Shown piece after piece: positions 16,020-16,527 of a stretch of DNA of 50,705 bases. The first letter of the stretch is position 1. Every line of letters begins with the position of its first letter. The translations under genes and the position numbers were made by a program. The stretch lies in the IMG/VR virus record IMGVR_UViG_3300029876_000011, one strand, 5' to 3'. The notes under the pieces were generated by a model, which saw only the letters and a program-made list of their open reading frames with translations, was not told the DNA's origin and did no database searches. The stretch comes from a virus.

Positions 16020-16065
16020 TTATTTCACCTTCTTTTATTATTTGAATACTATTTATTAACTTATT

Positions 16066-16365
16066 AATAAGCACTGTACTAATGATATAATGGATTTCTA
16101 TAGATTCAAACTACTCATGGAAAACAAGCCTAGAATAAAAACCTTTCCTCACTCGTTTTTTTATATATCATCAGTACACTACCTATTAAGTAGTGTAAAA
16201 AAATTATTATAAAGGGGATTTCTAGTATCTTTAATAGATACTGTACCAATGATATAAACTATGTTTTCTAAAATAGTTAGCCTGTTAGAAATTTAGTGCC
16301 ATAATGGCGAACCTAACCTATCCATTGTATATCATCAGTACACTACCTATTAAGTAGTGTTATTT
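16066..16365. repeat. Two tandem ~125-bp units, each bounded by inverted ~14-bp ends (gtacYaatgatata ... tatatcatcagtac) and ending in the hairpin acactac-ctattaa-gtagtgt
   Basis: ctgtacYaatgatataa at 16071 and 16241; tatatcatcagtacactacctattaagtagtgt at 16166-16198 and 16329-16361. Confidence 0.7.
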
Positions 16366-16439
16366 TATATGTAATTTTCGGATATTAAACCACTTTTTCG
16401 CATTTTAGGATTTTTCAAATCAAAAAAGTTTGAAATTTT

Positions 16440-16515
16440 GGTTTGTGTGAGAAATGAGGCCCCCTTACAGTACCCCAGCCAAATGGGAGGAAGTGAAGAG
16501 TGGGGGGGTGTCATT
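16440..16515. other. GC-rich island (ggcccccttacagtaccccagccaaatgggaggaagtgaagagtgggggggtg) in an AT-rich genome
   Basis: About 55% GC over 70 nt, with G5-G7 and C5 runs, directly after the stop of gene 16528..17430. Confidence 0.6.
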
Positions 16516-16527
16516 AATCAAATTAAA

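What the first reader, a model, noticed from the sequence alone, without database searches (positions are those of the whole stretch)
16020..16527. 500-bp non-coding region upstream of the TerS candidate and TerL with paired inverted-repeat units and a GC-rich island: candidate cos/pac and packaging recognition region
This is the largest intergenic gap in a tightly packed genome. It contains two tandem ~125-bp units, each bounded by 14-bp inverted repeats (gtacYaatgatata / tatatcatcagtac) and ending in the identical 33-bp segment with the hairpin acactac-ctattaa-gtagtgt. A 70-nt, ~55% GC block with G7 and C5 runs lies at 16440-16515. HNH endonucleases, which are common cos-cleavage partners of terminases, are encoded nearby (17772..18870). 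Terminase small subunits typically bind arrays of direct or inverted repeats.
Basis: inference. Interest (0 to 1): 0.6.

Follow-up and report, generated by a model that had tools for sequence, protein, structure and literature searches.

The report
Phage cos site plus RNA cassettes
This gap holds the phage's genome-end (cos) site in its GC-rich island, but the two inverted-repeat units next to it are not packaging signals: they belong to a widespread, apparently undescribed family of small structured-RNA cassettes in gut phages.

Summary
The region is the largest ORF-free gap, holds two ~120-nt units with 14-nt inverted arms and a shared 36-nt segment, and contains the genome's highest GC peak.

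The cos site lies in the GC island. Three ~51-52 kb contigs from different gut samples end at window 16470. Two others start at 16458. The 11 nt between them (TGTAAGGGGGC on the gene strand) are missing from both ends, as expected for a 3' cohesive end. Contigs of relatives with 55-58% TerL identity start at the same aligned column, 9 nt before a conserved CACA...AAATTTTTGAGATTTTT motif.

The two units are not packaging repeats. They are absent from relatives with 89% TerL identity that keep the cos core. They occur in 25 other viral and 6 MAG contigs, next to unrelated genes.

Each unit is a conserved ~26-bp stalk: 97% paired on the gene strand with 85 G·U cells, against 87% and 7 on the other strand. 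The stalk encloses one of about 18 interchangeable structured cores, often followed by a terminator. No Rfam, tRNA, GenBank-phage or literature match was found.

Most likely they are processed small-RNA cassettes in the late transcript. RNase III cleavage of the stalk is an inference.

The parts
16470..16515 (-). Right genome end: the GC-rich segment with a C7 run. Reading the gene (minus) strand, the genome ends ...CATTTGGCTGGGGTAC at 16470.
   Evidence: Contigs L119, L121 and L122 (51.1-51.9 kb, three different samples) end exactly here. L120 ends here with a snap-back artefact. It is the highest GC peak of the genome.
16459..16469 (-). Inferred 11-nt cohesive end, TGTAAGGGGGC on the gene strand, inferred to be a 3' overhang (cosN core).
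   Evidence: It is present in circular-junction contigs (window, L106/L115, L116, L117, L118) but absent from both kinds of linear contig end. The core is conserved in the 89% TerL relatives L004/L005 (GGGACTGTAAGGGGGGC) and resembles Butyrivibrio phage Arian (TACTGTGCCCGA). The polarity is inferred from end-repair chemistry.
16410..16458 (-). Left genome end (starts CTCATTTCT at 16458) plus a conserved motif, CACACAAACCAAAATTTCAAACTTTTTTGATTTGAAAAAT. This is a candidate cosB-like TerS-binding region.
   Evidence: L081/L001 and L082/L002 start at this base. L107 carries an unrelated 56-nt tip joined at this base. Eleven further contigs of relatives start at the same aligned column, 9 nt before C(A/G)C(A/G)-N5-7-AAATTTTTGAGATTTTT. 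Protein binding was not tested.
16224..16360 (-). RNA cassette 2 (cos-proximal). Order on the gene strand: hairpin 1, 5' stalk strand (16353-16328), a 71-nt structured core (16327-16257), 3' stalk strand (16256-16231), hairpin 2.
   Evidence: The core family is shared with L082 and L107, and the core hairpin GCCA/UGGC is replaced by GUCA/UGAC in L082.
16059..16197 (-). RNA cassette 1 (terS-proximal). Order on the gene strand: hairpin 1, 5' stalk strand (16189-16164), a 74-nt core (16163-16090), 3' stalk strand (16089-16064), and a short palindrome. It ends 40 nt before the terS start codon.
   Evidence: The core family is shared with L082 and L083.
15708..16019 (-). 103-aa ORF, a terS candidate by position only. 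Its stop overlaps the TerL start.
   Evidence: It matches phrog_1066 (unknown function), with no Pfam hit above cut-off. The model is confident and all-helical (pLDDT 87) but has no significant PDB fold match. The ORF is conserved in relatives.
14053..15711 (-). Large terminase (TerL_ATPase plus TerL_nuclease domains).
18157..18870 (-). HNH motif fused to an AAA_33-like P-loop domain. It is a possible accessory nuclease for cos cleavage.
   Evidence: Pfam HNH E=1.9e-4; PHROG HNH families E=6e-8; phrog_4581 E=3.5e-50. The role is inferred.

Best explanation
The gap contains two separate things.

(1) A cos site.
- Shown: linear genomes of this phage end at ...GGCTGGGGTAC (window 16470, gene strand) and begin at CTCATTTCTCACAC (16458).
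- Shown: the 11 nt TGTAAGGGGGC between these points occur only in circular or concatemer junctions.
- Inferred: terminase makes nicks staggered by 11 nt, leaving 3' cohesive ends. TerL may be helped by the HNH protein encoded 1.7 kb upstream.
- Inferred: the 103-aa TerS candidate recognises the conserved A/T-rich motif just inside the left end (16410-16450). Packaging then runs toward terS-terL.

(2) Two accessory small-RNA cassettes between cos and terS.
- Shown: each is a highly conserved ~26-bp stalk (10 bp, a G-G mismatch, then 15 bp including an almost invariant G·U). The stalk encloses a variable 50-85-nt structured core.
- Shown: pairing and G·U content favour the gene-sense strand.
- Shown: the same frame carries about 18 unrelated core families in many gut and rumen phages. 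It is always co-oriented with the genes and often followed by an intrinsic terminator.
- Inferred: the cassettes are transcribed within the late transcript. A double-strand-specific RNase (RNase III type) cuts the stalk, releasing the core as a small stable RNA and separating the flanking mRNA segments.
- Inferred: the identical frames also serve as homology for recombination that swaps cassettes between phages.
For: cos:
- Right ends coincide in three contigs from different samples and assemblers, plus one snap-back.
- Left ends coincide in two IMG/VR contigs, plus one chimeric tip at the same base.
- The junction with the 11 nt is present in five circular-type contigs, and the window itself is circular with a 99-nt overlap.
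- Eleven contigs of relatives start at the same alignment column beside a conserved motif.
- The cos core is conserved in the 89% TerL relatives and resembled in Butyrivibrio phage Arian.
- TerL has the nuclease domain, and an HNH protein is nearby. HNH proteins are known components of HK97-type packaging machines (Kala et al. 2014, as cited in PMC9611059).

Cassettes:
- The exact 28-base arm pattern is found in 25 viral contigs and 6 MAG contigs.
- Outside this phage lineage no homologous TerL lies nearby. Contexts are varied and always co-oriented with the genes.
- The stalk is 97.3% paired over 31 distinct frames, and 7 pairs show double changes. No shuffle of 500 reached the observed pairing or covariation score.
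- Sense strand: 754/775 cells paired with 85 G·U. Antisense: 676/775 with 7 G·U.
- Hairpin 1 folds to -236 kcal/mol summed on the sense strand and -159 on the antisense.
- A terminator-like site lies downstream in 11 of 33 units, against 1 of 33 in the control direction.
- Cores fall into about 18 families with conserved folds.
- An analogous frame in L107 encloses a tRNA, and units sit among tRNA genes in L097 and L099.
- Units are absent from the 89% relative and all more distant TerL relatives.
Against: cos:
- No read-level data were available. Contig ends can also arise at assembly-graph branch points.
- One contig (L107) continues from 16458 into a CapD-like sequence, which could be read as a host junction.
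- The overhang polarity rests on assumed end-repair library chemistry.
- The TerS assignment is positional only, with no family or fold match.

Cassettes:
- There is no expression data.
- The near-invariance of the 14-nt arms limits covariation there. It could instead reflect a sequence-specific protein site, or recent spread by recombination.
- Some stalk covariation could reflect relatedness of the sequences.
- RNase III cleavage is untested.
- In a two-unit array, alternative cross-unit pairings are predicted.
- Uncurated catalogues of phage structured RNAs (PMC10690425) could already list these, and that could not be checked.
Confidence: 0.6

Rival explanations
1. One reading: the two inverted-repeat units are the TerS recognition array of the cos/pac region.
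For: They lie between the genome end and terS. All six copies of the arm 13-mer with at most 1 mismatch cluster in 16075-16627.
Against: They are absent from L004/L005 (TerL 89%), which keep the cos core, and from all 55-58% relatives. Copy number and core differ among phages with 98-100% TerL identity. The same units sit next to unrelated terminases, scaffold genes, regulators and tRNAs. The strand-asymmetric G·U pattern and downstream terminators point to RNA.
Confidence: 0.06
2. The discontinuity at 16458 is not a cos end. It is an attachment site or prophage boundary, or a mosaic recombination breakpoint at which assemblies branch.
For: L107 joins 56 nt of a CapD-like Rossmann-motif sequence exactly at 16458. 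The phage is temperate, with a serine integrase and a repressor.
Against: The integrase lies 25 kb away (41497-42855). The foreign piece is only 56 nt, the size expected for a single k=55 tip. Separate contigs end 11 nt away on the other side. Divergent relatives start at the same aligned column beside a conserved motif. The full-length linear contigs are about genome length.
Confidence: 0.1
3. The units act at the DNA level. They could be miniature inverted-repeat mobile elements, recombination or cruciform sites, or convergent promoter-like sequences, rather than RNAs.
For: They have long inverted repeats. They are gained and lost between close relatives. Promoter-like hexamers lie within the arms on both strands. 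The arms are nearly invariant in sequence.
Against: Cores are unrelated between copies, with about 18 families, unlike the uniform interior of MITEs. No target-site duplication could be defined. Mismatches are overwhelmingly G·T on the gene strand, 85 against 7. The elements are always co-oriented with genes, and 11 of 33 have sense terminators. Promoter-like sites in the region are no more frequent than in shuffles.
Confidence: 0.12
4. The units are cis-acting leader RNAs that control late-gene expression. They might act by antitermination or attenuation, or as mRNA stabilisers, without releasing a functional small RNA.
For: They sit upstream of terS or scaffold genes and directly after late regulators. 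Terminators often follow them. Local hairpins and the extended stalk are mutually exclusive alternatives.
Against: Interchangeable, unrelated cores within one frame are not expected for a single regulatory aptamer. Some units lie among tRNA genes or at operon ends. An analogous frame holds a tRNA.
Confidence: 0.2

Closest known systems
cos sites of HK97-type siphophages (Terminase_1-family TerL, HNH accessory protein, 3' cohesive ends)
   Same: The site is immediately upstream of terS-terL. Cleavage positions are fixed, with a short GC-rich overhang segment of 11 nt here. A conserved recognition motif lies on the terS side. TerL has ATPase and nuclease domains. An HNH protein is encoded near the right genome end (HNH role per Kala et al. 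2014, cited in PMC9611059).
   Different: The sequence is unrelated to characterised cos sites. TerS is unassignable by family or fold. The HNH is fused to a P-loop domain and separated from cos by three genes. The ends are inferred from contig termini, not from virion DNA.
RNase III processing stalks: T7 intercistronic R sites, Bacillus phage SP82 sites, rRNA-operon stalks flanking 16S/23S
   Same: They are long imperfect dsRNA helices in polycistronic transcripts, co-oriented with the genes. In rRNA stalks the helix encloses a stable RNA that is released. Phage sites with internal loops are known substrates (PMC1935012).
   Different: Here one nearly invariant ~26-bp stalk sequence is reused across many phages around about 18 different small cores. 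Cleavage has not been shown. T7 and SP82 sites are simple hairpins without cargo.
Phage tRNA/stable-RNA gene clusters (for example the T4 tRNA region with extra small RNAs; own knowledge)
   Same: Small structured RNAs of unknown role are encoded together with tRNAs and are probably matured by host RNases. Units lie within about 1 kb of co-oriented tRNA genes in six loci: L087, L097, L099, L107, L113, L114.
   Different: The cores are not tRNAs (ARAGORN and Rfam negative). They are framed by a conserved stalk.
Miniature inverted-repeat elements (MITEs, Correia-type repeats)
   Same: They are short, non-coding and bounded by inverted repeats. They lie in intergenic sites and vary in presence between close relatives.
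   Different: The internal sequence is not conserved between copies. The strand-specific G·U pattern points to RNA. No target duplication is recognisable.

Membership tests
cos site (defined cohesive genome ends) | Genome termini at fixed nucleotide positions | tested here: met
   Three contigs end at 16470 and two start at 16458, from independent samples. Relatives start at the same aligned column. This evidence is indirect, from contig ends rather than virion reads.
cos site (defined cohesive genome ends) | Complementary single-stranded overhangs that join to give a circular junction | tested here: inconclusive
   The 11 nt are present only in junction-spanning contigs and missing from both linear ends. 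This fits 3' overhangs removed by end repair, but strand chemistry was not observed.
cos site (defined cohesive genome ends) | Adjacent to terS-terL, with a terminase that carries a nuclease domain | tested here: met
   TerL_ATPase E=3.6e-18 and TerL_nuclease E=7.1e-29. cos lies 440 nt upstream of the terS candidate.
HK97-type HNH-assisted packaging | HNH endonuclease gene next to the terminase genes across the cos junction | tested here: inconclusive
   An HNH motif protein is at 18157-18870 (Pfam E=1.9e-4, just above cut-off; PHROG HNH E=6e-8). It is three genes away from cos and fused to a P-loop domain.
TerS-binding repeat array (cosB/pac R sites), for the two units | Conserved in phages that share the terminase and cos core | tested here: not met
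   Units are absent in L004/L005 (TerL 89%, same cos core) and in 75 further TerL-relative loci.
TerS-binding repeat array (cosB/pac R sites), for the two units | Confined to the packaging-initiation region | tested here: not met
   The same units lie between minor-head and scaffold genes, after regulators or HNH genes, and among tRNAs in other phages.
RNase III processing stalk | About two turns of near-continuous dsRNA on the transcribed strand | tested here: met
   There are 25 pairs, 97.3% paired across 31 frames on the sense strand against 87.2% on the antisense.
RNase III processing stalk | Cleavage by RNase III with 2-nt 3' overhangs | not testable with these tools
   This needs in-vitro cleavage or an rnc-mutant transcriptome.
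Any Rfam 15 family / tRNA / tmRNA | Match at the gathering score, or an ARAGORN call | tested here: not met
   The window has no hits at gathering. The region gives only E>=1 noise. Sixteen unit-bearing loci give only tRNAs elsewhere. ARAGORN finds none in the window.
MITE-type mobile element | Copies share the internal sequence and are flanked by target-site duplications | tested here: not met
   Cores fall into about 18 unrelated families. No duplication could be defined when comparing the filled site with the empty site.
attP / prophage boundary at 16458 | Site adjacent to the integrase and flanked by host DNA in integrated copies | tested here: not met
   The serine integrase is 25 kb away. 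The only foreign junction is a 56-nt tip. The genome scan for the arm pattern returned six MAG contigs and did not retrieve this phage's locus, so no integrated copy was seen.

The most novel reading that the evidence does not exclude
The two units belong to an undescribed class of modular RNA cassettes in phages of low-GC gut bacteria. One nearly invariant ~26-bp dsRNA stalk, with a fixed G·U and a G-G mismatch, acts as a portable frame. The frame would express, process and horizontally exchange at least 18 different small structured RNAs, and in an analogous frame a tRNA. The released cores could be trans-acting RNAs such as decoys or regulators of host or rival-phage functions.
Probability: 0.3. 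Interest if true: 0.75.

Novelty: new variant of a known kind. Interest (0 to 1): 0.5.

Why it matters
The cos mapping gives base-level genome ends for a common uncultured human-gut phage lineage. It also gives a conserved end-proximal motif for a broad family of its relatives. This is useful for genome orientation, completeness calls and packaging-type prediction from assemblies alone.

The more interesting result is the cassette family. A single conserved RNA stalk that carries many interchangeable small structured RNAs in the late regions of diverse gut and rumen phages suggests a shared maturation and exchange mechanism for phage small RNAs. If confirmed, it offers a simple sequence handle (the 28-base arm pattern) for harvesting many candidate phage sRNAs of unknown function.

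Tried and rejected
- Rfam, at gathering on the whole window and at E-value threshold on the region, gave nothing meaningful; the miRNA and snoRNA hits at E>=1 only reflect the long stem.
- ARAGORN found no tRNA or tmRNA in the window.
- Rfam on 16 unit-bearing loci found only ordinary tRNAs outside the units.
- blastn of the region, and of a unit, against GenBank phages found no real match.
- A literature string search for the arm sequence gave zero papers. The supplements of the large phage structured-RNA catalogue are not held.
A viral-collection scan for the right-side sequence also returned nothing.
- attP idea: considered because of the CapD-like 56-nt tip in L107. Rejected because of the integrase distance, the tip size, and the matching ends in relatives.
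- Hammerhead or C/D-box reading of the CUGAUGA in the arm: rejected. The heptamer is fully paired in the stalk, there is no GAAA or D box in register, and no Rfam ribozyme or snoRNA hit.
- CRISPR-like mini-array: rejected. Repeat spacing is 164 nt, the repeats are halves of an inverted repeat, and no cas context was seen in the annotated genes.
- Antisense-target search of the two cores against the phage genome found only chance-level matches.
- TerS verification by profile search against PDB sequences and by fold search gave no significant match.
- Exact-protein look-ups for the 49-aa ORF across cos and for the window's fibre protein found neither on record.

Full report
**Setting.**
- The window is a circularly assembled phage genome of about 50.6 kb with a 99-nt terminal overlap. 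It is 28% GC, and almost all genes are on the minus strand.
- Reading the minus strand, the order is: tail-fibre genes; an HNH/P-loop fusion protein (18157-18870); two small ORFs; a fibre gene (16528-17430); the 508-nt gap; a 103-aa ORF (15708-16019); TerL; portal.
- The phage is temperate. It has a serine integrase at 41497-42855, a repressor, and a sigma-like factor.
- It has no DNA-level relative among GenBank phages. Its TerS-candidate protein, however, is indexed in 116 blocks of public assemblies, including human gut metagenomes.

**Observation.**
- The gap is the largest ORF-free stretch.
- The two units have 14-nt inverted arms and share a 36-nt segment with the hairpin.
- The GC island is the highest GC peak of the genome.
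- All six close copies of the arm 13-mer lie within 16075-16627.

**The genome ends.**
- Look-ups of exact proteins returned full-length contigs from many gut samples.
- Three contigs (L119, L121, L122; 51.1-51.9 kb; different samples; scaffold-named and k141-named assemblies) end at exactly ...CATTTGGCTGGGGTAC, which is window 16470 on the gene strand. A fourth ends there with a snap-back artefact.
- Two IMG/VR contigs from different samples start at exactly CT(C/T)ATTTCTCACAC, which is window 16458.
- A further contig carries 56 nt of unrelated CapD-like sequence joined at that same base.
- The 11 nt between the two points, TGTAAGGGGGC, are present in five junction-spanning contigs and in the window, but in none of the linear ends.
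- End repair fills 5' overhangs and removes 3' overhangs. A segment missing from both ends is therefore what a 3' cohesive end predicts. This step is inference.
- The ends are not a quirk of one lineage. Among 80 loci of TerL relatives, eleven contigs with 55-58% or 98-100% TerL identity start at the same alignment column. That column is 9 nt before a conserved C(A/G)C(A/G)-N5-7-AAATTTTTGAGATTTTT motif.
- Relatives with 89% TerL identity keep GGGACTGTAAGGGGGGC-ATTACTTTCACACAAACC. The cultured Butyrivibrio phage Arian (TerL 47%) has a similar arrangement, with two TTGAGATTTT repeats upstream of its terS-like gene. Its paper reports no termini.
- I therefore place cosN at 16459-16469, the right end in the GC island, and a cosB-like recognition motif at about 16410-16450.
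- An attP reading of the L107 junction was considered and rejected. The integrase is 25 kb away. The foreign piece has the size of a single k=55 tip. Distant relatives also end at this position.

**The two units are something else.**
- A gapped search for the 28 arm bases found 25 IMG/VR contigs. A degenerate version found 6 MAG contigs, from uncultured Clostridia, 'Tenericutes', Bacilli and Candidatus Coprosoma.
- Outside this phage's own lineage, none of these lies near a homologous TerL.
- The units sit upstream of other terS types, between minor-head and scaffold genes, after an HNH gene, after late regulators, and among tRNA genes. They are always co-oriented with the flanking genes.
- Conversely, only the three closest TerL relatives (98-100%) carry units. 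The 89% relatives have the cos core followed directly by terS.
- Near-identical phages differ in cassette content. L081 has one unit with a different core. L107 and L116 have an expanded array that includes a tRNA with an 8-nt anticodon loop inside an analogous frame.
- These results fail the two defining expectations for terminase recognition repeats.

**Anatomy of a unit.**
- Folding shows that the 14-nt arms are only the inner part of a longer stalk. The stalk is 10 bp, a G-G mismatch, then 15 bp: 5' UUUAUAGGUA-G-UGUACUGAUGAUAUA pairs with UAUAUCAUUAGUACA-G-U(R)(Y)CUUAUAAA.
- I aligned 31 distinct frames with the cores replaced by a 4-nt linker. The 25 pairs are 97.3% paired, and seven pairs show changes on both sides, for example U-A in 14 and A-U in 13 at one position. 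No shuffle reached the observed pairing or covariation score.
- One G·U is present in 30 of 31 frames.
- On the gene strand there are 85 G·U cells and 21 unpaired cells. On the opposite strand there are 7 and 99.
- The upstream local hairpin folds much better on the gene strand, -236 against -159 kcal/mol summed, with 36 against 1 G·U pairs.
- The downstream local hairpin is present in about 60% of units, with covariation. It competes with the outer stalk.
- Eleven of 33 distinct units are followed within about 100 nt by a terminator-like hairpin and T-run in the sense direction, against one in the control direction.
- The cores are 50-85 nt and fall into about 18 families. Members of a family, found in unrelated phages, keep a common predicted fold with occasional compensatory changes. 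The window's cassette-2 hairpin GCCA/UGGC becomes GUCA/UGAC in L082.
- Several families share sub-motifs (AAGGUU...AACCUU; GGUUAG/CUAAC).
- Nothing matches Rfam, tRNA models, GenBank phages or searchable literature. Membership in uncurated catalogues of phage structured RNAs cannot be excluded.

**Mechanism.**
- Shown: a conserved, strand-specific, long double-stranded stalk enclosing variable structured cores, located in transcribed late regions.
- Inferred: the stalk is a processing signal for a double-strand-specific RNase, as in T7 and SP82 intercistronic sites and rRNA-operon stalks. Cleavage would release the core as a small RNA and separate the neighbouring mRNA segments.
- Inferred: the identical frames provide homology for cassette exchange.
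- The function of the cores is unknown. The window's two cores have no convincing antisense target in the phage itself.
- Rivals are a cis-regulatory leader, a DNA-level repeat element, and the original packaging idea. Each is scored separately.

**Verdict.**
- The cos site is an ordinary new member of the HK97-type class, supported by contig-end evidence rather than virion data.
- The cassette family is the unexpected part. It deserves experimental follow-up.

Noticed in passing
window 17475-17579 (in ORF 17372-17782, minus strand): A perfect 27-nt tandem repeat, 3.9 copies, encodes a 9-aa repeat. The orthologous ORF is 118, 127 or 136 aa in otherwise near-identical contigs, so copy number varies. 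One contig (L124) breaks inside the repeat.
   Followed up: partly
L107 505-705 (also present in L116): A related phage has an expanded cassette array between cos and terS. One cassette has a divergent but analogous frame: 12-bp arms with a G·U at the same position, flanked by two hairpins. It encloses a tRNA-like gene with an 8-nt anticodon loop (ARAGORN anticodon 'taag'; Rfam tRNA 31.6 bits), which could be a frameshift-suppressor-type tRNA.
   Followed up: partly
window 16543-16555 and 16615-16627: Two further one-mismatch copies of the arm 13-mer lie inside the 3' end of the tail-fibre gene, coinciding with repeated ISTS/FMIST codons. They may be chance, a remnant, or a recombination hotspot. 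This remains unexplained.
   Followed up: no
window 16528-23315, compared with L115-L124: The tail-fibre module at the right genome end is swapped between phages that share identical HNH, terS and TerL proteins. Collagen/Collar-type fibres alternate with DUF285-type proteins. This probably explains why several assemblies break here.
   Followed up: no
window 18157-18870: An HNH motif is fused to an AAA_33-like P-loop (kinase-type) domain. The best PHROG family for it (phrog_4581, E=3.5e-50) is labelled 'terminase small subunit', which looks like a doubtful label.
   Followed up: no
L107 1-56: A 56-nt fragment encodes a CapD/Polysacc_synt_2-type Rossmann motif (VLITGAGGSIGSE) and is joined exactly at the left genome end. 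It was interpreted as a chimeric k-mer tip at a physical DNA end, but this was not proven.
   Followed up: partly
window 36158-38319: A tyrosine recombinase (37450-38319) lies directly upstream of an N6 DNA methylase (36158-37450). This is in addition to the serine integrase at 41497-42855. A second methylase with a ParB-like N-terminal domain is at 30058-31233.
   Followed up: no
window 16365-16514 (minus strand): A 49-aa ORF spans the cos junction. It is not on record in the protein collection and would be split in linear genomes, so it is probably not a gene.
   Followed up: partly
cores of units in the window, L084, L086, L092, L093 and L099: Different core families share short motifs: a 5' UAAAA, an AAGGUU...AACCUU helix, UUCUAG, and GGUUAG/CUAAC with pseudoknot potential. 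This hints that many 'families' are diverged versions of one RNA architecture.
   Followed up: no
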